A stretch of 12,895 nucleotides of DNA from Armatimonadota bacterium (GTDB taxonomy: Bacteria; Armatimonadota; UBA10988): positions 1 to 12,895 of the forward strand of contig JACRKZ010000054.1 in assembly GCA_016235455.1 (NCBI GenBank), written 5' to 3'. Positions 1 through 12,895 of the stretch are shown in pieces. Each line of letters begins with the position of its first letter. Position 1 is the stretch's first letter. Under the pieces are notes generated by a model. It was not told where the DNA came from, made no database searches, and worked only from the letters and a program-made list of their open reading frames with translations. The translations under genes were made by a program, and so were the position numbers.

Positions 1-284
1 ACAACGTCTGCCCCGGCATCGACGCCTTCCCCATGGAGCTCAAGGAGGGCCGCTACCGGCTCAGCTTCTGGGTCAAGGCCGACCGCGACGACGGCGGGGC
101 CAACTTCGGCTTGTACGGCTACGACAAGTCGCCCTGGAAGGACATCACCGCCAACCGCGACTGGCACCAGGAGACGCTGGACTTCGAGGTGCCCCGCGAC
201 ACGCAGCGCACCTGCTGGCGCATCACCGCGACCAGGCGCGGGACGCTGTGGGTGGATGCGTTGGAGGTGCGGCCGCTGCCGTAG
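1..284 (+). CDS. C-terminal fragment of a larger protein ending in a CBM4/9-like (galactose-binding-like) beta-sandwich; 5' truncated by the window edge
   Basis: Frame is open from position 3 (NVCPGIDAFPMELKEGRYRLSFWVKAD...). It has the typical 'Y.LSFWVK...W.....F......LWVD.LEV' pattern. Stop TAG at 282-284. Confidence 0.7.
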   Translation, partial: NVCPGIDAFPMELKEGRYRLSFWVKADRDDGGANFGLYGYDKSPWKDITANRDWHQETLDFEVPRDTQRTCWRITATRRGTLWVDALEVRPLP

Positions 285-361
285 GGCGGCGGGCGGTGCC
301 GGCGGGATCAGGCCCAGCGTCCGGAAGATCGCACGACAGCCCGTCTGCTGTCCTATGCGAA

Positions 362-390
362 TGGTATGATTCGCGCCGCCCAACCTGGAG
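362..390 (+). promoter_or_regulatory. Extended -10 promoter (TGnTATGAT) and RBS for the glycoside hydrolase
   Basis: TGGTATGAT at 362-370 in a GC-rich background, GGAG at 387-390, ATG at 401. Confidence 0.5.
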
Positions 391-400
391 CCGCCCACCC

Positions 401-1657
401 ATGCCCCATCCCCAACCCGCCGCCACCTTCCTCGCCAGCCTCGGCGTCTGCACCGCCGTCTCCCGCCGTCACGAGGACCTCGCGCACACCATCGACTGCC
501 TGCGCTACCTGGGCCTGCGCTGGGTGCGGCAGAGCTATGAGAGCGATGTGCCCGTGGCCGACCTGCTCGAACTGGCGCGCCAGACCGGCGTGCGCTTCGC
601 CTATGGACCGGCCAGTGGCGGCAACGACCTTGACCGGCTGCTGCGCGGTGGGCGGGAGCTGGCTGCCGCGGGCGCGTTGCTGGCCTTTGAGGGCAACAAC
701 GAGCCGAACAACTGGGGCGTCACCTACCAGGGCGAGTCTGGCGGGCGCGAGGCGTCGTGGCTGCCGGTGGCACGGTTGCAGCGGGATCTGTATGCGCGCG
801 TCAAGGCCGACCCGCTGCTGCGCGACTACCCCGTGTGGAGCCTGTCGGAAGGCGGCGCCGAGACCGACAACGTCGGGCTGCAGTACCTGACCATCCCGCC
901 CGGCGCCGGCTGTGCCATGCCCGACGGCACGCGCTATGCCGACTTTGCCAACTGCCACAACTACCTGAGCCACCCTGAGCATCCGGGGCTGTATGACAAC
1001 CAGGCCTGGATCGCGTCCGACCCCGGACCCGCCTGCCGGGTCGATGGGCTCTATGGCAACTACGGCCGCACCTGGCGCGCCGGGTTCCCCGGCTACGGCG
1101 AGGAGGAGCTGGCGACGCTGCCGCGCGTGACCACCGAGACCGGCGTGCTGATCGACGGGCCGTTCACCGAGCGCGTGCAGGGCCTGCTGTACCTGAGCCT
1201 GTATCTGGCGCAATTCGCCCGTGGCTGGCAGCACACCTCGGTCTACCTGCTGCGCGACCGCAGCGACGAGGAAGGCAACCAGACCTTTGGCTTCTACGCG
1301 CCCGACTACACGCCGAGGCTCGCGGCACATTACCTGCACAACCTGACCACCGTGCTGGCCGACCCGGACCCGCACGCCTGGCCGGATTCGGTGGATTGCC
1401 GGCTGCTCGACCCGCCCGAGACCGTGCACGACCTGCTGCTGCAGAAGGGCGACGGCACGGTGTGTCTGGTGGTGTGGGGCGAGCGCTTTGGTGGCGACGA
1501 GGATGTCGTGACGCTCGAGTTGGGCCGGCGCGCGACGGCGCTACGTGTGTATGACCCGACCGTGGGCACGGAGCCGGTGCGGGAGCTGGTGGACGCAGAG
1601 CGGGTGGAGCTGACCCTGAGCGACCATCCGCTGGTCTTGTGCTGGCGGCCGACCTAG
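401..1657 (+). CDS. Putative clan GH-A (TIM-barrel) glycoside hydrolase with C-terminal beta-sandwich, no signal peptide
   Basis: Start moved from 248 to ATG 401 (RBS GGAG; the upstream extension overlaps the previous gene). Acid/base-like motif FEGNNEPNN, NCHNY, nucleophile-like VTTETG, YLLRD...FGFY...P motif, beta-rich C-terminus. Confidence 0.75.
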   Translation: MPHPQPAATFLASLGVCTAVSRRHEDLAHTIDCLRYLGLRWVRQSYESDVPVADLLELARQTGVRFAYGPASGGNDLDRLLRGGRELAAAGALLAFEGNNEPNNWGVTYQGESGGREASWLPVARLQRDLYARVKADPLLRDYPVWSLSEGGAETDNVGLQYLTIPPGAGCAMPDGTRYADFANCHNYLSHPEHPGLYDNQAWIASDPGPACRVDGLYGNYGRTWRAGFPGYGEEELATLPRVTTETGVLIDGPFTERVQGLLYLSLYLAQFARGWQHTSVYLLRDRSDEEGNQTFGFYAPDYTPRLAAHYLHNLTTVLADPDPHAWPDSVDCRLLDPPETVHDLLLQKGDGTVCLVVWGERFGGDEDVVTLELGRRATALRVYDPTVGTEPVRELVDAERVELTLSDHPLVLCWRPT

Positions 1658-5244: not shown

Positions 5245-8049
5245 ATGGGGCGCATTGGTGTCGTTCTTCTTCTCTGCGCGGTCAGCGCGGCCAGTGCTCA
5301 GCCGGCGCGCCGCTGGTCGCCCGACGAACTGCTGGCGCTCAGCGGTGTCGGCGGGTTCGGGTCCACGGGCGTCATCGACACCTCCACCGAGCAGCGCGCG
5401 CCGGGCAACACCTTGGGCTTCAGCCTGGGTTTCGACTGGTCCAAGCATGGCACCGACCCAGGCTGGTGGAGCATCCGTATGGGCCTGCCGCGCGGCGCGC
5501 GCCTGGCCGACTACGACACGTTGGCCTTCGATGTGCGCGCCGAGCCCGGCGGCACGGCCAACCTCAAGCTGTTCCTCTATGAACCGGACGACAACCGCTG
5601 GGTGGCCTGGGACAAGCCGCTGGCCGAACTGGCCGACGGAGCCTGGCGCCATGTGGAGACCAGACGCGAATCCATGTCGCTGTGGAAGCTGAGTGCCAAC
5701 GCCGAGGACTGGAACGCCATCCACGGCCTGGCGCTGGAGCCCAACAACGGCACGGGCATCTTCTACCTGGACAACCTGTGCCTCAAGGGGCCCGGCGGCC
5801 GGGTGCTGCCGCTGGTCGATCTCAGCGACGACGGCCTGGTGGCCGACCCGGCCTGGCATGAGCCGCTGCCCAAGGGTCCGCCGCCCGTGGGCACGGTCTA
5901 CTTCCCGCACGATGGCGCGCGCATTGGCGACAAGACCATGCGCGACTCGGCGCTCGGCCTGCACCAGCGCCTGGGTCAGGTGGGCGTGCCGATGTCGGGC
6001 TATGGGCCGACCATGGTGGCCGCCTCGCGCGAGCTGCGCGCCGCGGGCGTATCGACCCTCTACTACGCCAGCATGGGCGGCGCCTACCGCCGCTACTTCA
6101 CGCGGCGCGGCGCCTGGGACGAAAACCTGGCCGGCCGCAGCCTCAACGCGCTGCCCGGCTCGCTGACCAACTGGGACTGGCAGCACATGTACGCCATGGG
6201 CCATCCGGCGGTGTTCGAGGCGCAGAAGCAGCGCGTCGACGCCTTGTTGAAGGCCGGTATGACCACCTGGATGGTGGTCGACTACACCTTCCCCTGGCAG
6301 GACGGGCCGTGGGGCTACAGCCAGGCCAACGTCGACGCCTTCCGCGCGGACCTGCTGGACCGCGACGAAGGGCTGATGCTGCGCTGGCCCAACAGCTTTC
6401 GGGCGCCCAAGCCGCGGTTGAGCTTCGCCGGCTACTTCCGCCACTACCTGGGCTTCGACCCATCGCCGGCGCAGTTTGGGCTGGCTCGCTGGGAGGACTG
6501 GACCCCGCCACGGCCCGCCGACCCCGCGCAGTGGCAGCGTAGCAGGCAGGTGCTGTTCATGCTCCTGCGCAGCTTCGAGTGGCTCAAGCTGCCCGACCGC
6601 GTGGGTCGCTACTACCGCGATCAGGGCGGTCAGCCGCTGTGGATCATCCCCAACCCCGAAGACACCGGCGGCTCGAGCGACTACCAGTTCATGCTGCGCA
6701 GCCAGGGCGTGGGCAACCTGTTCCCCGAGTGGTTCGGCCCCATCGGCTGGGCCGCCGAGGCCACCTACGCCAGCTTGCCGGGCCTGCGCGAGACGGCTGA
6801 CGCGGCCGGCACACGGCTGTCGATCATCCACGAGACCGGCGCCGGCGGGCACTCGTCGCCCTATCTCGACTGGCGCGTGGCCTACACCGGCGTCTATGCC
6901 ATCACCGCCTCGGGCCGGCTCGACGACTTCGACAACGACTTCCTCGACGAGCATCCTCAATCGGTGCTCGACAAGCCCGAGAGCAACGCCTACCACTTCA
7001 ACCGCTACCGCGAGGGCGTGGGCAAGGCGATGGCTTTCCGCCAGGCGCGGGCCGACCGGGCCAGGCGGGGTGAGGCGGAGATCGTCTGCATCGGCGAACG
7101 GCCGCCGGCGCGGGCCTGCGGCAGCCCGTACTTCACGCTCAACCAGCCGCACAGCCTGGGCGTGGGTCTGTCGCGCGCGCACCTGCTGTTCGACTGGCGC
7201 GAGCAGTCGGACGTTGGGCTCTCGTTGGATCTCAAGCGGATGGTCGTCTACAACCCGTGGGCGCTGCGCTCGGGCGACGTGGAGCGTTGGATGGACTGGC
7301 TGGGCGGCGGGCCCGGCCGCGTCTTCGTCACGCACAGCTTTGTGCCTACGCGCGACACGACCGGCTTCTGGGGCCTCACCGCCAGCAGCGAGCTGGGCAA
7401 CCAGACCACCGCCGCCGGCTTCGGGCTGGGCCGCATCACCGCCGGTGAGAAGGGCCGCGTGACCATCACCGAGGCGCCCGAGGCCTGGGGCCTCCGGGGC
7501 CGCAGCCTGGAACTGACCGCGCCGCTGTGCCGCGCCAGCCAGGGCGAGCCGGTGGTCATGACCGACCGTGGCCCGCTGGTCTATCGCGTGCGACGCGGCG
7601 GGGGCACACTCTACTATCTGGCCTACACGCCGGGCGACAGCGACGAGACCCAACGGCTCGACGCGCTGCTCATGACGGCCATCGCACGTGAAGCCCAGAT
7701 CACCCCCGAGGTGCGCGCCGACTTCGACACGCTGGTGCAGCAATGGGGTGGCAACGGCCTGCGGGTCATCGCCGCCTGGGACGCGCCGGCCATGGGCAAG
7801 TTCGACTGGCGCTACGAGCCGGGCATCGCCGCCATGCCTTACGAGGCGCCGGGCGTATCGCGCACGGTCACCACCCGACCGCTCGCAGCGAAGCTGGCCT
7901 ACGACTTCTGGCGCGATACCACCACGCCGTTCGAGAGCCAGGCCACGCTGAAGCTCGACGGCGCGCTCTGCGGTCTATGGTATCTGGCGTCGGACGAGGC
8001 CGCGCTGGCGCCGATCAAGGCGGTGCGGGCCAAGATGAATGGCTGGTAG
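5245..8049 (+). CDS. Secreted multidomain CAZyme-like protein (signal peptide, CBM11/CIA30-like domain, probable TIM barrel, possible GH42-type trimerisation/GATase-like domain)
   Basis: Sec signal MGRIGVVLLLCAVSAASA-QP. Jelly-roll pattern 'ADYDTLAFDVR...LKLFLYE...W..V...WNAIHGLALEP...GIFYLDNL'. Trp/Tyr-rich core. The C-terminal 'MVVYNP...WLGGG..VFVT...RRGGGTLYYLAY' resembles GH42 C-domains. Strong G/C third-position codon bias and an RBS. Confidence 0.7.
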   Translation: MGRIGVVLLLCAVSAASAQPARRWSPDELLALSGVGGFGSTGVIDTSTEQRAPGNTLGFSLGFDWSKHGTDPGWWSIRMGLPRGARLADYDTLAFDVRAEPGGTANLKLFLYEPDDNRWVAWDKPLAELADGAWRHVETRRESMSLWKLSANAEDWNAIHGLALEPNNGTGIFYLDNLCLKGPGGRVLPLVDLSDDGLVADPAWHEPLPKGPPPVGTVYFPHDGARIGDKTMRDSALGLHQRLGQVGVPMSGYGPTMVAASRELRAAGVSTLYYASMGGAYRRYFTRRGAWDENLAGRSLNALPGSLTNWDWQHMYAMGHPAVFEAQKQRVDALLKAGMTTWMVVDYTFPWQDGPWGYSQANVDAFRADLLDRDEGLMLRWPNSFRAPKPRLSFAGYFRHYLGFDPSPAQFGLARWEDWTPPRPADPAQWQRSRQVLFMLLRSFEWLKLPDRVGRYYRDQGGQPLWIIPNPEDTGGSSDYQFMLRSQGVGNLFPEWFGPIGWAAEATYASLPGLRETADAAGTRLSIIHETGAGGHSSPYLDWRVAYTGVYAITASGRLDDFDNDFLDEHPQSVLDKPESNAYHFNRYREGVGKAMAFRQARADRARRGEAEIVCIGERPPARACGSPYFTLNQPHSLGVGLSRAHLLFDWREQSDVGLSLDLKRMVVYNPWALRSGDVERWMDWLGGGPGRVFVTHSFVPTRDTTGFWGLTASSELGNQTTAAGFGLGRITAGEKGRVTITEAPEAWGLRGRSLELTAPLCRASQGEPVVMTDRGPLVYRVRRGGGTLYYLAYTPGDSDETQRLDALLMTAIAREAQITPEVRADFDTLVQQWGGNGLRVIAAWDAPAMGKFDWRYEPGIAAMPYEAPGVSRTVTTRPLAAKLAYDFWRDTTTPFESQATLKLDGALCGLWYLASDEAALAPIKAVRAKMNGW

Positions 8050-8738: not shown

Positions 8739-10855
8739 GCCACCACCGCCGCCGGCGCGTCGGCCGGCGATTGCGCCAGTTCGGCGCGGGCCAGGGCCAG
8801 CATCTGCTCAGCCGTGCCCAGGCCCGATAGGTCCACCAGCCGGTCGCCGCACAGCAGGTGCGCCGCGGGCGGCATGGCGCCGCCGGCGTCGTACGTGGTC
8901 AGCCGCGGGAGCAGGGCGTCCAGCAACGCCAGCGCCGTGCCCGCGGTGCCCGCGTGAACCTCAGCCTGCTCGAATCGCAAGCGCACGACGCCGTCGGCAT
9001 CGAGCACGCCGCCACGCGTGCGGCGGCGCCGGAGCAGGCCCAGCAGCGCCTTGACCTCCTCCTCACCCTCATACACGCTGAGCCGCCCGCAGCGCGCGGC
9101 CAGGCGTACGCTGGCCAGGTGCAGGGCGCCCGCCGCAGCCGCGGCCAGGTCGGCGTCGCTCAAGGCAGCGCGCGTGCCGCCGGTGCGCAACTCGGTGGCG
9201 CCCGAGGCCACGGCGCGTGCGATGTTGCGCGCCGCGTCCACCTCGACCTCCACCTCGACCGTCTCCGCCGCGGCGCCGCTGGCGATGGCCGCATCGCGCG
9301 CGGCGGCGCGCAGGTCCAGCAGTGCGGCCTCACTGACCGGCGGCACGATGGTGCGTTCGACAGACTCCCGCACCAGCGCCAGGGCGACGCCGATGGGCGA
9401 GATGACCTCGTGATGCGCCGCCAGATGCCAGGGCAGGCCCATCGCCTCGGCCACGGCGGCGACGATCACCGCGCCACCACCGCCGCCGGCCACCAGTGTC
9501 ACGTCGCGCCGGGCCAGGCCCGCCGCGCCGATCAGCGCCTCGGCCACCGGCTGCACCTTGGCTGCGGCGGCGGCCAGGATCTGTCTGGCGATGCCGTCCA
9601 CCTCGCCGCCCAGCGCCGCCGCCAACGGCGCCAACGCCAAGCGCGCAGCGGTTGGCGCCGCCCAGGCGAAACTCTCGCGCGGCAGGCTGCCCAGCGCATT
9701 GGCCGCGCAGGTGGTGGTCAGGGCCAGGCCCATGCCGTTGGCGCAGCGGACGAGCACGTAGTCGGCCGGATCGCCCGCGCGCGGGGCCATGGTCTCCAGC
9801 GTGCAACCGGCGAGCATGGCGGGGTCGGCGTAAGCGGCATAGTCGAGCCCGGCGATGTGGGCGCTGCGTGGGCCGACGTCGACCAGCCGGCCGCCGGCGA
9901 CGCGCACCATGGAGCCGCCTGCCACGCCGACCGTGCGCACATCGAGCGCCGGCACGGCCAGGGGATGTCCGCCCACGATGGCATCGCCGGTGCGCACGCG
10001 GCCGCCCTTGACCGCGCTGAGGTCGGTGCTGGTGCCGCCGACCTCGAGGAACAGGCCATCGCTCAGGCGCTCAGCCATGAGCGCGCCGGCCACACCCGCT
10101 GCCGGACCAGAGAGCAGCGTCAGCACCGGCCGCCGCCGCACCTGATCGACGCTCATCACGCCGCCGTCGCAGCGCATGACCATCAGCGGTGCGGCGATGC
10201 CCGCGGCCCGCACGCTGTCTTCCGTGCGGGTCGCTGCTTCCACCATGCGCGGCAGGATGGAGGCGTTGACCACCGCGGTACGCGTGCGCTTCCGCAGGCC
10301 GAGGAGCTGGGTCATCTCGTGCGTGCACACCGCCGGCAGCCCGGCGGCCGCGGCGGCCTGGGCGATGGCCAGCTCGGCGCTGGGGTCGTCGACCGAGAAG
10401 GCAGCCGCGGCGACGATGACCGCCGCGCCCGCGGCGACCATCTGGGCCACGCCGTCGGCGACCTGGTCGGGCGCCACGAAAGTGTGCAACGGCGTCAGCA
10501 GCTTGCCGGGCGCCAGCTCGATGGGCGGCACCGCCGTCTCGCCACGGGCGCGCCGACCCTCCAGCCCGTCGCCGACCGCGACGACGCCGACCGCGGCCAC
10601 ATCGCCTTCCAGCAGCGCGTTGGTGGCCTGGGTGGTGCCGTGGGCGATGAACCGCACGGCGTCCGGCGCCAGCGCCAGGTCGGCCATCAGGCGCCCCAGG
10701 GCCTGGACGATGCCTTCGGCCACGCCGGTGAGCGCGGCGTGGGTGGTGGGCACCTTGACGCTGCCGAGCAGCGCGTGCGTGCCGGCGTCGATGGCGACGG
10801 CGTCGGTGAACGTGCCCCCGACGTCGATGCCGATGCGAATCGCGGGGTCAGCCAT
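8723..10855 (-). CDS. Hydantoinase A/5-oxoprolinase family ATPase (ASKHA fold)
   Basis: IRIGIDVGGTFTD, KVPTT, HGTTQATNALLE, RTRTAVVNA, LLSGPAAG, EVGGTSTD, VAGGS, AGGGGG motifs. Start at ATG 10855 (MADPAIRIG) overlaps the transporter stop (ATGGCTGA). Confidence 0.92.
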   Translation of the reverse strand: MADPAIRIGIDVGGTFTDAVAIDAGTHALLGSVKVPTTHAALTGVAEGIVQALGRLMADLALAPDAVRFIAHGTTQATNALLEGDVAAVGVVAVGDGLEGRRARGETAVPPIELAPGKLLTPLHTFVAPDQVADGVAQMVAAGAAVIVAAAAFSVDDPSAELAIAQAAAAAGLPAVCTHEMTQLLGLRKRTRTAVVNASILPRMVEAATRTEDSVRAAGIAAPLMVMRCDGGVMSVDQVRRRPVLTLLSGPAAGVAGALMAERLSDGLFLEVGGTSTDLSAVKGGRVRTGDAIVGGHPLAVPALDVRTVGVAGGSMVRVAGGRLVDVGPRSAHIAGLDYAAYADPAMLAGCTLETMAPRAGDPADYVLVRCANGMGLALTTTCAANALGSLPRESFAWAAPTAARLALAPLAAALGGEVDGIARQILAAAAAKVQPVAEALIGAAGLARRDVTLVAGGGGGAVIVAAVAEAMGLPWHLAAHHEVISPIGVALALVRESVERTIVPPVSEAALLDLRAAARDAAIASGAAAETVEVEVEVDAARNIARAVASGATELRTGGTRAALSDADLAAAAAGALHLASVRLAARCGRLSVYEGEEEVKALLGLLRRRRTRGGVLDADGVVRLRFEQAEVHAGTAGTALALLDALLPRLTTYDAGGAMPPAAHLLCGDRLVDLSGLGTAEQMLALARAELAQSPADAPAAVVAWARR

Positions 10856-11902
10856 GCGCCACCTGGATCCAAACCAGCGCCACGACATTGGCCGCCCAGG
10901 CATAGGGCAGCGTCGAGCGCAGCACATCGTTGACGTCGCAGCCGGCGAAGCCGGCGGCCCAGGTGTTGTGGGTGTTGGTCGGGTCGCAGACGCCCTGCAC
11001 CAGGCCCGAGCCCATCAGCGCGCCGCCGACCAGCGGCCCGCCCAGCGCCGCTTTGAGCATGGCGCCCAGCCCGGCGCCCATGCCATACAGATTGAGCGGC
11101 CCGCGATACAGCGCCAGCGGGCTGAGCAGTCCGAAGACCAGCACGTAGCTCACGGCGCCGTGCGGCACGGCGCGCGCCAGCAGCGGCCCGACGGCGCCGG
11201 TGACGTTGTCGGCCATGAGCACGGTGACCACCATGCCAATGCCCATCATCAGCCACAGCACCGGCGCCACCGCGCGGATCCCTTCGACGATGGCAGCGCT
11301 GAGCGACTGGGCGATGTCGCGCGGTCGGGTGGCCACCACGCCGTACAGGATGGCCAGCGCGAGCGCGGCGTTGATCTCCAACTCGACCCCGGCGAACTTG
11401 GCGCCGAGCACCAGCCCGATGGGCAGCAGCGGCGTGAGCAGCGCGGCCGGGCCGACAGCCGGCACCGCGCCCGTGGGCGGCACTTGGGCGAAGGCGGCGC
11501 GCGCGCGGCGGCTCTCGCGCAGGACATAAGCCAGCGTGGCCAGCGCCAGCGGCACGGTGCAGGCCAGCGAGAGCTGCATGCCGTGGCGATGATCATGACC
11601 AGCGACACCGACACCGGCCGGTCGCCGGCCAGCTCGGCGGCGCGCCGCACAATGGCCTCCGCCACGCCGCTGACCGCCACCACCTGCGCCAGCACCGCGC
11701 CGAACACGGCGTTGGACATGGCCCCGGCCAGCCGCGTGGTGCCCTTGCCAAACACCAGGCTCAGCGCCGCCAGCGGCTCGCCGTGCTGCGCGGCCAGCGC
11801 GATGACCAGCGCCATGAGCGGCAGCGCCAGCAGGGCCGAGAGTACCTTGTGGTACATCAGCCAGGCGCAGACAACGAACGACAGGGCGATGACCCAGGCC
11901 AT
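10848..11902 (-). pseudogene. IT-superfamily (CitMHS/GntP-like) membrane transporter, disrupted by a frameshift or deletion near 11580 (or a sequence error)
   Basis: AAGGAG RBS plus ATG 11902 gives MAWVIALSFVV...LLALPLMA...GVAEAIVRRAAELAGDRP in one frame. The hydrophobic C-half MQLSLAC...LALYRGPLNLYGMGAG...QGVCDPTNTHNTW is in another frame. The total span of 1055 nt is not a multiple of 3. Confidence 0.8.
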
Positions 11903-11923
11903 GGGAACTCCTTCGTCGGAGTG

Positions 11924-11948
11924 GTTCGGCGTGACGGGCAGGAGTCCT
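11924..11948 (-). promoter_or_regulatory. Sigma-H-like promoter AGGA-N17-GAAC for the transporter/hydantoinase operon
   Basis: Minus strand acAGGActcctgcccgtcacgccGAAC, 21 nt upstream of ATG 11902. Confidence 0.45.
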
Positions 11949-12016
11949 GTCGCGGCTGCGGAGGGGCAGGAGCCGGCCTGGCTGCGGTATGTAACATGTC
12001 CGCCGCAGGTCGGCCC

Positions 12017-12043
12017 TACACTCGTGCGCCGGCCGGCCGATAC
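12017..12043 (+). promoter_or_regulatory. Sigma-28 (FliA/SigD)-type promoter
   Basis: TACA (12017-12020)-N15-GCCGATAC (12036-12043) against the consensus TAAA-N15-GCCGATAA: exact spacing, one mismatch per box. Confidence 0.65.
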
Positions 12044-12049
12044 TACCAG

Positions 12050-12308
12050 TGAGCGTGACGTAGGCGCTCGACAAACTACCGAGCACGTGCGGCGCACCAG
12101 GCGTCGGCACAGCCTTGCCGGGCAGAACGTACGGGTCTGCAAGTCGAAGGCGCATATCGGAGGGTGGCAACCGCCCAGCGATGTGCGCCTTCCGTGGTTT
12201 TGGACCGTCGGGGCGCCCGATGTTCGGTGCGTGGATGCCTTTCCGTAGCCAACGCGGAAGACTGGTCGGCCGGCCTCACGACTCCCGAGGCCGGCCGGTC
12301 TGGTTTTT
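12050..12308 (+). ncRNA. Candidate structured non-coding RNA (~260 nt), sigma-28 promoter to intrinsic terminator
   Basis: Nested stems P1 12116-12124/12221-12229, P2 12131-12138/12202-12208, P3 12146-12159/12179-12192 with distal 12162-12167/12171-12176, side hairpin 12209-12219. G-U wobbles work on the + strand. No credible + strand CDS. Confidence 0.6.
12264..12308 (+). terminator. Rho-independent terminator
   Basis: Stem GGTCGGCCGGCCTC (12264-12277)/GAGGCCGGCCGGTC (12287-12300) followed by TGGTTTTT. The U-tract is on the + strand only. Confidence 0.65.
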
Positions 12309-12329
12309 GGGGGCGATGGGACGGCTGGT

Positions 12330-12895
12330 TCAGTGCCGCAGGAAGGCCAGCAGGTCGGCGTTGAGCTGCTCCTGATGCGTGGCGAACAGGCCATGCGGCG
12401 CGCCTTGATAGACCTTCAGCGTCGCGCCTGGCACCAGCCTGGCCGTGCGCAGACCCGCGGCGCCGATGGGCACGATCTGGTCGTCGTCGCCATGCACGAC
12501 CAGCGTCGGCACGTCGAAGGCGGCCAGATCCGCGGTGAAGTCGGTCTCGGAGAACGCCCGGATACAGTCGTAGGTGCCCTTGTGCCCGGAGCGCATGCCT
12601 TGCAGCCAGAACGAATCGATGACGCCTTGCGAGACCGTGGCCCCAGGCCGATTGGCGCCGAAGAAGGGGCCGCTGGCGATGTCGCGGTAGAGCTGCGCCC
12701 TGTCGGCCAGAGCGCCGAGGCGCAGCTTGTCGAAAACGGCCATGGGCTGACCGTCGGGGTTGTCGGCGGTCTTGACCATCAGCGGTGGCACCGCGGAGAT
12801 CAGGGCAGCCTTGGCCACGCGCCGCGTGCCGTGGCGACCGATGTAGCGCGCCACCTCTCCGCCGCCCGCGGAGCAGCCGACCAGGGCGACATCGC
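12330..12895 (-). CDS. cpo: Non-heme chloroperoxidase/perhydrolase-arylesterase family alpha/beta hydrolase; 5' part outside the window
   Basis: Frame is open to the window edge: [22 protein letters not shown] (nucleophile elbow), [23 protein letters not shown] (Asp), GAPHGL (His), LNADLLAFL. Confidence 0.9.

What the first reader, a model, noticed from the sequence alone, without database searches (positions are those of the whole stretch)
12017..12308. Stand-alone sigma-28-driven structured RNA with its own terminator: candidate undescribed flagellar-regulon ncRNA
Seen: a near-consensus sigma-28 promoter (TACA-N15-GCCGATAC), then ~260 nt of nested helices (P1 UGCCGGGCA/UGUUCGGUG, linker GAACGU, P2 ACGG(G)UCU/GGACCGU, internal loop GCAAGUC/CGUGGUUUU, 14-bp P3 GAAGGCGCAUAUCG/CGAUGUGCGCCUUC), then a GC hairpin with U-tract. 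Wobble pairs and U-tract point to the + strand, while both flanking genes are on the - strand, so this is not a leader of either neighbour. Established: sigma-28 transcribes late flagellar/chemotaxis genes. Inference: an independent RNA gene under flagellar control sits in a catabolic neighbourhood.
Basis: partly seen in the sequence, partly recalled or inferred. Interest (0 to 1): 0.85.

Follow-up and report, generated by a model that had tools for sequence, protein, structure and literature searches.

The report
Orphan structured RNA candidate, unproven promoter
Between two genes lies a stretch that would fold into an unusually stable rod-shaped RNA ending in a transcription stop signal, but it occurs only in this one species, its flagellar-type promoter is a weak match, and no expression data exist, so it is a modest unproven small-RNA candidate.

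Summary
The sequence features are real. The + strand of 12092-12232 folds into one 141-nt rod (z -5.7 against shuffles; - strand -2.3; lowest of 290 background windows -4.0). A GC hairpin with a U5 tail follows at 12257-12308. The spacer has no coding signal and no Rfam, tRNA or tmRNA match.

"Near-consensus sigma-28" is overstated. FliA and flagellins are present, and strong cT(T/A)AAG-N14-GCCGATA sites precede flagellin, motA, flgF/G and fliS. Those sites score at least 21.6 bits. The candidate scores 13.6 bits, rank 67 in the genome, and lacks an A that is invariant in the -35 box.

No homolog was found in the own genome, 6 genomes of the order, 400 of the phylum, two exact-pattern scans of genome contigs, plasmids or phages. 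A contig from a roughly 90-94% identical relative joins the same two genes with 114 other letters instead of 426. The terminator also sits 21 nt behind the hydrolase stop and may serve that gene.

Verdict: a species-restricted sRNA candidate (about 0.4) against a neutral foldback indel (about 0.3). Sigma-28 control is unproven.

The parts
11904..12329 (.). 426-nt spacer between the transporter-like gene and the hydrolase gene. It is non-coding, and a close relative has 114 other letters here.
   Evidence: GC by codon phase is 0.70/0.65/0.68, against 0.92/0.51/0.74 and 0.88/0.49/0.71 in the flanking genes. One X9 contig joins 11903 to 12330 with 114 letters between (table 5 and record 28).
11989..11997 (.). 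AT-rich palindrome ATGTAACAT between the candidate RNA promoter and the transporter start. It may be an operator or part of the transporter promoter (inference only).
   Evidence: Read directly. Not tested.
12017..12043 (+). Sigma-28-like site: TACA, 15 nt, GCCGATAC.
   Evidence: The PWM built from 11 strong sites gives 13.6 bits, rank 67. TA[AC]A-N15-GCCGATA occurs 5 times in the genome, one of them inside an ORF of 665 codons.
12053..12091 (+). 5' part with a small imperfect hairpin (12059-12070 with 12080-12091).
   Evidence: MFE helices.
12092..12232 (+). 141-nt rod-like hairpin of 8 helices with a 12-nt 5' bulge at 12136-12147.
   Evidence: -84.0 kcal/mol, z -5.68, MFE frequency 0.10. Helix probabilities 0.76-0.99.
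12146..12192 (+). Apical part: P3 of 12-14 bp, a 2x2 internal loop, a 6-bp cap and a CAA loop.
   Evidence: (I1).
12257..12308 (+). Intrinsic-terminator-like hairpin (stem 12262-12303, -28.5 kcal/mol) with a U5 tail at 12304-12308. It lies 21 nt from the hydrolase stop on the other strand.
10848..11902 (-). Transporter-like membrane protein gene in two frames (11902-11582 and 11579-10848). It lacks about 60 codons that the same-family ortholog has.
12330..12893 (-). 3' part of an alpha/beta hydrolase gene, cut by the contig end.
   Evidence: PF00561, E 7.5e-15.

Best explanation
A young, species-restricted + strand non-coding transcription unit of about 255 nt lies on a stretch of about 310 nt that a close relative lacks. 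Transcription would start shortly upstream of 12053, possibly at the weak sigma-28-like site. It would run through a small 5' hairpin and a very stable 141-nt rod, and stop at the hairpin with the U5 tail (12257-12308).

Shown: the fold and its strand preference, the terminator shape, the absence of coding signal, the absence of relatives, and the indel.

Inferred: that it is transcribed, and where transcription starts. Its action is also inferred. No Hfq was found and there are no trans copies or long complementary sites in the genome. The most likely effect is therefore local. The RNA is fully complementary to any - strand transcript reading from the hydrolase gene towards the transporter-hydantoinase genes, and its transcription converges on the hydrolase gene. 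It would act as a cis-antisense or insulating unit, if it has any function at all.
For: The + strand fold is an outlier: z -5.00 and -5.68, with 0 of 200 shuffles as good. No background window of 290 fell below -3.98. The - strand is much weaker: z -2.37 and -2.33.

17 of 92 MFE pairs are G-U. In a DNA-level alignment of the two arms, 9 mismatches are G-U on the + strand against 3 that are A-C.

The hairpin with T5 is + oriented. Only 53 of the 371 terminator-like sites in the genome have T>=5. Terminators behind the flagellin genes have the same hairpin-UUUGGGG shape.

There is no codon-phase GC signal and no plausible ORF. FliA is present at 232.7 bits, cut-off 189.6. A GCCGATAC -10 box sits about 10 nt upstream of the first helix. 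A contig of run X4 covers 11895-12227 with 2 other letters, so the element is stable within the species.
Against: No homolog and therefore no covariation:
- the own genome holds only the element itself;
- 0 of 60 relatives by BLAST;
- 0 of 6 genomes of the order by covariance model;
- 18 of 400 genomes of the phylum gave only scattered 20-53-nt matches, on different parts of the query, none in the family;
- 0 hits for two patterns in genome contigs;
- 0 in plasmids and phages.

A relative about 90-94% identical in both flanking genes has 114 letters instead of 426.

The promoter match is in the noise range: rank 67, and an equally good site (C92) points antisense into a ribosomal protein gene.

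The arm mismatches (12 transition-type, 6 transversion-type) look like neutral decay of an inverted duplication, and the 9:3 split is not significant.

The terminator may belong to the hydrolase gene. Outside ORFs, 17 hairpin-plus-T-run sites face only a convergent gene end, against 46 that sit behind a same-strand gene end.
Confidence: 0.4

Rival explanations
1. It is a neutral foldback piece of DNA (an inverted duplication, or the remnant of an inserted element) beside the hydrolase gene's partly bidirectional terminator. The structure is a by-product of the DNA palindrome, the sigma-28-like site is a chance match, and any transcript has no function.
For: There is an indel against a close relative and no conservation anywhere. 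The arm mismatches, 12 transition-type to 6 transversion-type, fit neutral decay. The 10-nt arms GGCCGGCCGA (12031-12040) and TCGGCCGGCC (12266-12275) are fully complementary and bracket the unit; they also account for the GCCGA of the '-10 box' (I7). The genome holds other long palindromes between genes. The neighbouring transporter gene is itself damaged. Non-conserved FliA sites in E. coli mostly drive unstable RNAs that are probably without function (abstract of bioRxiv 10.1101/188474).
Against: It is single-copy in the genome. No target-site duplication fits: the only 10-nt direct repeat has its second copy inside the conserved hydrolase coding sequence. The + strand is favoured by 21 kcal/mol in the rod. 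The clean U5 tail is on the + strand.
Confidence: 0.3
2. It is a - strand element: the hairpin at 12308-12257 ends the hydrolase transcript, and the rod is part of a long structured 5' leader that controls the transporter-hydantoinase genes.
For: Both neighbours are on the - strand. The terminator hairpin begins 21 nt after the hydrolase stop, and the rod lies upstream of the transporter start with its AAGGAG ribosome-binding site. The transporter-hydantoinase pair is kept in the same-family genome G003.
Against: The - strand fold is weak and ill-defined: z -2.33, MFE frequency 0.013. There is no Rfam cis-regulatory match on either strand. The - strand tail after the hairpin is UCUUCC, not a U-tract. 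G003 has only 11 nt upstream of its ortholog, and the close relative has only 114 nt, so no such leader is conserved.
Confidence: 0.1
3. It is a divergent 6S-like or other protein-binding rod RNA.
For: The shape is rod-like. RF00013 finds no 6S RNA anywhere in this 93%-complete genome.
Against: No 6S match at E<=10 in the region. The rod has no large two-sided central bubble, only a 12-nt one-sided bulge. It was not found in 6 genomes of the order or in 400 of the phylum, whereas 6S RNA is conserved (recalled). RF00013 rang in only 5 of 14 control genomes, so its absence from this genome says little.
Confidence: 0.03

Closest known systems
CJnc170 (FlmR) of Campylobacter jejuni
   Same: A non-coding RNA transcribed from a FliA (sigma-28) promoter as an unprocessed primary transcript (passages of PMC11187230).
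   Different: FlmR is 47 nt and was shown by experiment; the candidate is about 255 nt and only predicted. Any sequence relation was not tested, and no Rfam family matched the candidate. The candidate's promoter match is weak.
E. coli sigma-28-dependent sRNAs UhpU, MotR, FliX, FlgO
   Same: Small RNAs under FliA control. UhpU sits at a metabolic gene (abstract of PMC10578931).
   Different: These are UTR-derived, and Hfq is a keyword of the paper. The candidate overlaps no same-strand gene, and no Hfq gene was found in its genome.
Non-conserved FliA promoters that make unstable RNAs (Fitzgerald et al., bioRxiv 10.1101/188474)
   Same: A sigma-28-type site away from flagellar genes that is not conserved in relatives (abstract).
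   Different: Those promoters are mostly intragenic. This one is intergenic and is followed by a very stable fold and a terminator.
6S RNA (Rfam RF00013)
   Same: A long irregular hairpin.
   Different: No model match, no central bubble, and not conserved.
Bidirectional intrinsic terminators of this genome (for example C8:72554-72599 and C131:44558-44601)
   Same: A GC-rich hairpin between gene ends with a T5 run.
   Different: Those are perfect palindromes with A5 on one side and T5 on the other. The candidate's hairpin is lopsided, with GAAGA upstream and T5 downstream, which favours the + strand.
Foldback / MITE-like insertions
   Same: A few hundred bases that fold into a long hairpin, with short terminal inverted repeats, present in one lineage and absent in a close relative.
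   Different: A single copy, and no target-site duplication.

Membership tests
Sigma-28 (FliA) promoter | -10 box GCCGATAA | tested here: met
   GCCGATAC matches 7 of 8. The same octamer precedes the flgF/G-like gene on C66.
Sigma-28 (FliA) promoter | -35 box TAAA(G), in this genome cT(T/A)AAG, 14-15 nt upstream | tested here: not met
   The candidate has CTACAC. The A at the third position after C is invariant in 11 of 11 strong sites and is C here. Total PWM score 13.6 bits against at least 21.6; rank 67. The training sites were picked by pattern, so the test is partly circular.
Sigma-28 (FliA) promoter | The organism encodes FliA and uses this consensus | tested here: met
   TIGR02479 at 232.7 bits, above the cut-off. 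Strong sites precede 3 flagellin genes, motA, flgF/G and fliS.
Sigma-28 (FliA) promoter | FliA-dependent transcription start | not testable with these tools
   No RNA data could be laid.
Intrinsic (factor-independent) terminator | A GC-rich stem-loop directly followed by a U-tract on the transcribed strand | tested here: met
   Stem 12262-12303 at -28.5 kcal/mol, then U5 at 12304-12308. The scan found 1 site against 0.3 expected in shuffles.
Any Rfam 15 family | Covariance-model score at or above the gathering threshold | tested here: not met
   0 matches at gathering score over the whole window. The best match at E<=10 is 17.3 bits against a cut-off of 73; the matches are miRNA models and similar, which is noise.
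6S RNA | RF00013 match, a large central bubble, and conservation across relatives | tested here: not met
Hfq-dependent trans-acting sRNA | Hfq present in the organism | tested here: not met
   PF17209 was not found in the 93%-complete genome. This does not prove absence.
Conserved structured ncRNA (any) | Homologs with compensatory base changes | tested here: not met
   No homolog was found, so covariation could not be computed.
MITE / repeated foldback element | Several copies, with terminal inverted repeats and target-site duplications | tested here: not met
   Single copy. 10-nt inverted arms are present (I7), but no fitting direct repeat. Repeats are often lost from draft assemblies.

The most novel reading that the evidence does not exclude
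In a poorly sampled lineage where no Hfq was found (99 DUF1559 matches hint, by recall, at Planctomycetota or a neighbour), a recently born stand-alone RNA of about 255 nt has been wired into the late flagellar regulon through a sub-optimal FliA promoter. Its double-stranded rod lets it act on the adjacent transporter-hydantoinase genes in motile cells. That would be a caught-in-the-act example of the birth of an sRNA gene.
Probability: 0.2. Interest if true: 0.5.

Novelty: new member of a known kind. Interest (0 to 1): 0.3.

Why it matters
If it is transcribed, it would be one of the few sRNA candidates in this poorly sampled lineage, where neither Hfq nor a 6S match was found. The lineage hint rests only on 99 DUF1559 matches. 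Because a roughly 90-94% identical relative lacks the stretch, it would also be a datable case of a very young RNA gene. If it is not transcribed, it shows that a stable fold, a U-tract hairpin and a sigma-factor-like motif can come together on a neutral foldback indel in GC-rich DNA. That is a useful caution for scans of this kind.

Tried and rejected
1. Wrong-frame error. The reference window:10848-11580:- is one base out of frame. The searches were redone with the right frame (P0003). The true ortholog in G003 lies at the same place that one search had reported.

2. RNA evidence: no RNA holder was listed among the 15 runs.

3. Parts without cover: in runs X8, X9 and X12 many contigs cover the hydrolase gene, but depth is about 0 over 11920-12269 (table 2). 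This shows nothing about absence.

4. The 17 metagenome loci encoding transporter relatives (41-53% identity) gave nothing with model R1; the best E-value was 0.42.

5. The R1 hit at C94:41747-41846 (E 0.047) is an unrelated near-perfect palindrome between convergent genes.

6. RNAduplex of the candidate against 5 flagellin leaders gave z from -0.6 to +1.2, so no signal. The eye-caught similarity between the loop at 12071-12079 and the conserved UUCUAGUUGU loop of the flagellin leaders was dropped.

7. A remnant of the roughly 60 missing transporter codons was not found in the spacer.

8. Hydrolase P0002 was not found in G001-G005, so no synteny could be used there.

9. Sigma-70-type promoters: 0 found in 11700-12895. 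A sigma-54-like GGCAC...TTGC at 12105-12118 has the wrong spacing (read by eye).

10. tRNA and tmRNA: none in the window.

12. No supplementary file of any paper was consulted.

Full report
**Setting.** The window is the whole of contig C173 of a draft genome: 6.5 Mb, 185 contigs, 93% complete, 69% G+C. The lineage is sparsely sampled: 1 other genome of the genus, 4 more of the family and 1 more of the order. The finding lies in a 426-nt spacer (11904-12329) between two - strand genes.
- On the right is an alpha/beta hydrolase gene (PF00561, E 7.5e-15). Its stop codon is at 12330-12332.
- On the left is a membrane protein gene whose ATG is at 11902, behind an AAGGAG box. It is followed by a hydantoinase_A-like gene.
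- The spacer has no codon-phase GC pattern: 0.70/0.65/0.68, against 0.92/0.51/0.74 in the neighbouring gene. Its mechanical ORFs are Arg-rich nonsense.

**The fold.**
- On the + strand, 12045-12310 folds at -141.9 kcal/mol, z -5.00, with 0 of 200 shuffles as good. The - strand gives z -2.37.
- The core is one 141-nt rod, 12092-12232: -84.0 kcal/mol, z -5.68, MFE frequency 0.10. The - strand gives -63.2 kcal/mol, z -2.33, frequency 0.013.
- A background scan covered 290 windows of 141 nt (first half of the window, both strands, 30 shuffles each). It gave mean z -0.27, sd 1.06 and lowest -3.98. The rod is therefore a true outlier.
Its P1 and P2 registers have probability of about 0, and its structure scores -51.1 against -84.0 kcal/mol.
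- 17 of 92 pairs in the MFE are G-U.
- In a DNA-level alignment of the two arms there are 45 Watson-Crick positions, 9 G-U on the + strand, 3 A-C, 6 transversion-type mismatches and 14 gap positions. The 9:3 split leans to the + strand but is not significant. The 12:6 ratio of transition-type to transversion-type mismatches is what neutral decay of an inverted duplication would give.

**The terminator.** A stem at 12262-12303 (-28.5 kcal/mol) is directly followed by U5. The tool's own scan found 1 terminator-like site in 11700-12895, against 0.3 expected. My genome-wide survey found 371 hairpin-plus-T-run sites.
- 53 of the 371 have T>=5.
- 223 lie inside crude ORFs.
- 46 lie behind a same-strand gene end.
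- 17, this one included, face only a convergent gene end.
- 85 have no called gene end nearby.

The crude gene list holds 3982 ORFs and misses many genes. Two of the four convergent-only T>=5 sites are perfect A5-palindrome-T5 bidirectional terminators. The candidate's hairpin is lopsided: GAAGA upstream and T5 downstream on the + strand, and a UCUUCC tail on the - strand. It also begins 21 nt after the hydrolase stop. It favours the + strand, but it does not prove that a + strand gene exists.

**The promoter.** FliA is present (232.7 bits, cut-off 189.6) and there are 8 Flagellin_N matches. Sites of the form cT(T/A)AAG-N14-GCCGATA precede the following genes:
- flagellin genes;
- motA (PF01618);
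- a flgF/G-like rod gene (PF00460, PF06429);
- fliS (PF02561);
- a DUF1559 pilin-like gene;
- two histidine kinase genes and others.

A PWM built from 11 such sites scores them at 21.6 bits or more. The candidate (CTACAC-N14-GCCGATAC) scores 13.6 bits and ranks 67 of 493 sites above 8 bits. It sits among matches that are mostly inside genes. A better-scoring site with the same CTACAC box (C92, 16.3 bits) points antisense into a ribosomal protein gene.

67 sites over 13 Mb of strand is one per about 194 kb. That gives about 0.13 expected per window read on both strands, and about 5e-4 for any given 100 nt. The position just upstream of the rod is therefore suggestive, but this reasoning is after the fact. 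The GCCGA of the box is also part of a 10-nt arm (12031-12040) that is fully complementary to the terminator's 5' arm (I7). I put sigma-28 control at roughly 0.2-0.3.

**Relatives.**
- Rfam: nothing at gathering score over the window, and only noise at E<=10.
- No tRNA or tmRNA.
- BLAST: the own genome holds only the element itself, and 0 of 60 relatives matched.
- In 400 genomes of the phylum, 18 gave scattered 20-53-nt matches to different parts of the query; none was in the family.
- A covariance model of the rod found only itself in the own genome, plus one unrelated palindrome.
- The same model found 0 of 6 genomes in the order and nothing in 17 metagenome loci.
- Two pattern scans of genome contigs gave 0 hits. 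Plasmids and phages gave 0.
- The same-family genome G003 has the transporter-hydantoinase pair behind an 11-nt spacer and a different upstream gene.

**Public runs.**
- A contig of X4 covers 11895-12227 with 2 other letters, so this is the same species.
- One 1071-nt contig of X9 matches 11657-11903 (14 other letters) and 12330-12894 (54 other letters). Between them it has 114 letters instead of 426.
- A close relative therefore lacks about 310 nt. Whether this is an insertion here or a deletion there cannot be told without an outgroup.

**Reading.** The structure and the U-tract make a + strand RNA the single best explanation (about 0.4). A neutral foldback indel beside the hydrolase terminator is nearly as good (about 0.3).

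For mechanism, no Hfq was found, there is no second copy, and there is no special pairing with flagellin leaders. These argue against a classical trans-acting sRNA. A local antisense or insulating role against read-through from the hydrolase gene is the most economical guess, and it is inference only.

6S RNA is rejected. There is no model match, the rod has no central bubble, and it is not conserved.

**Known kinds.** FliA-dependent sRNAs are already described:
- four UTR-derived ones in E. coli (abstract of PMC10578931);
- the 47-nt primary transcript CJnc170/FlmR in C. jejuni (passages of PMC11187230).

Most non-conserved FliA promoters in E. coli drive unstable RNAs that are probably without function (abstract of bioRxiv 10.1101/188474). 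At best this is a new, unrelated member of a known kind.

**Error note.** Four calls (15, 21, 34, 36) used a transporter reference one base out of frame. They were repeated correctly.

Noticed in passing
window 10848-11902 (- strand): The transporter-like gene is in two frames. Against the 418-aa ortholog of the same-family genome G003, it lacks residues 111-170: residues 1-110 match 11902-11573 and residues 171-410 match 11585-10875. It is either a pseudogene or an assembly collapse. It has no Pfam family apart from a sub-threshold GntP_permease hit on the N-terminal part.
   Followed up: partly
G000 C142:677-3250, C164:12521-12644: Three of the five flagellin leaders examined share a hairpin whose loop reads (A)UUCUAGUUGU, between the sigma-28 promoter and the ribosome-binding site. 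This may be a conserved regulatory element of the flagellin mRNAs.
   Followed up: no
G000 C8:72554-72599 and C131:44558-44601: These are near-identical perfect palindromes (CGGTGTCAGG...CCTGACACCG) flanked by A5 and T5. They look like a small family of bidirectional terminators or a repeated element.
   Followed up: no
G000 C94:41747-41846: A 100-nt near-perfect hairpin (-85.8 kcal/mol) between two convergent genes. It is unrelated in sequence to the finding.
   Followed up: partly
G000 C165:46339 and genome-wide: A top-scoring sigma-28-type site precedes a DUF1559/N_methyl pilin-like gene. The genome has 99 DUF1559 matches, against 0 in the 14 control genomes. By recall this hints at Planctomycetota or a neighbouring phylum.
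   Followed up: partly
window 5245-8049 (+) and 2-1657 (+): Two long ORFs with coding-like GC3, of 934 aa and at least 551 aa, have no Pfam match.
   Followed up: no
G000 C92:13454 (- strand): A sigma-28-like site with the same CTACAC -35 box as the candidate (16.3 bits) lies in a 34-nt gap between + strand genes. It points antisense into an L19-like ribosomal protein gene (the protein was identified by eye only).
   Followed up: partly
window 12330-12893: The hydrolase gene has no match in the 5 other genomes of the family. Many contigs of other organisms in three metagenome runs match it at 80-90% identity. It may have been acquired horizontally.
   Followed up: no
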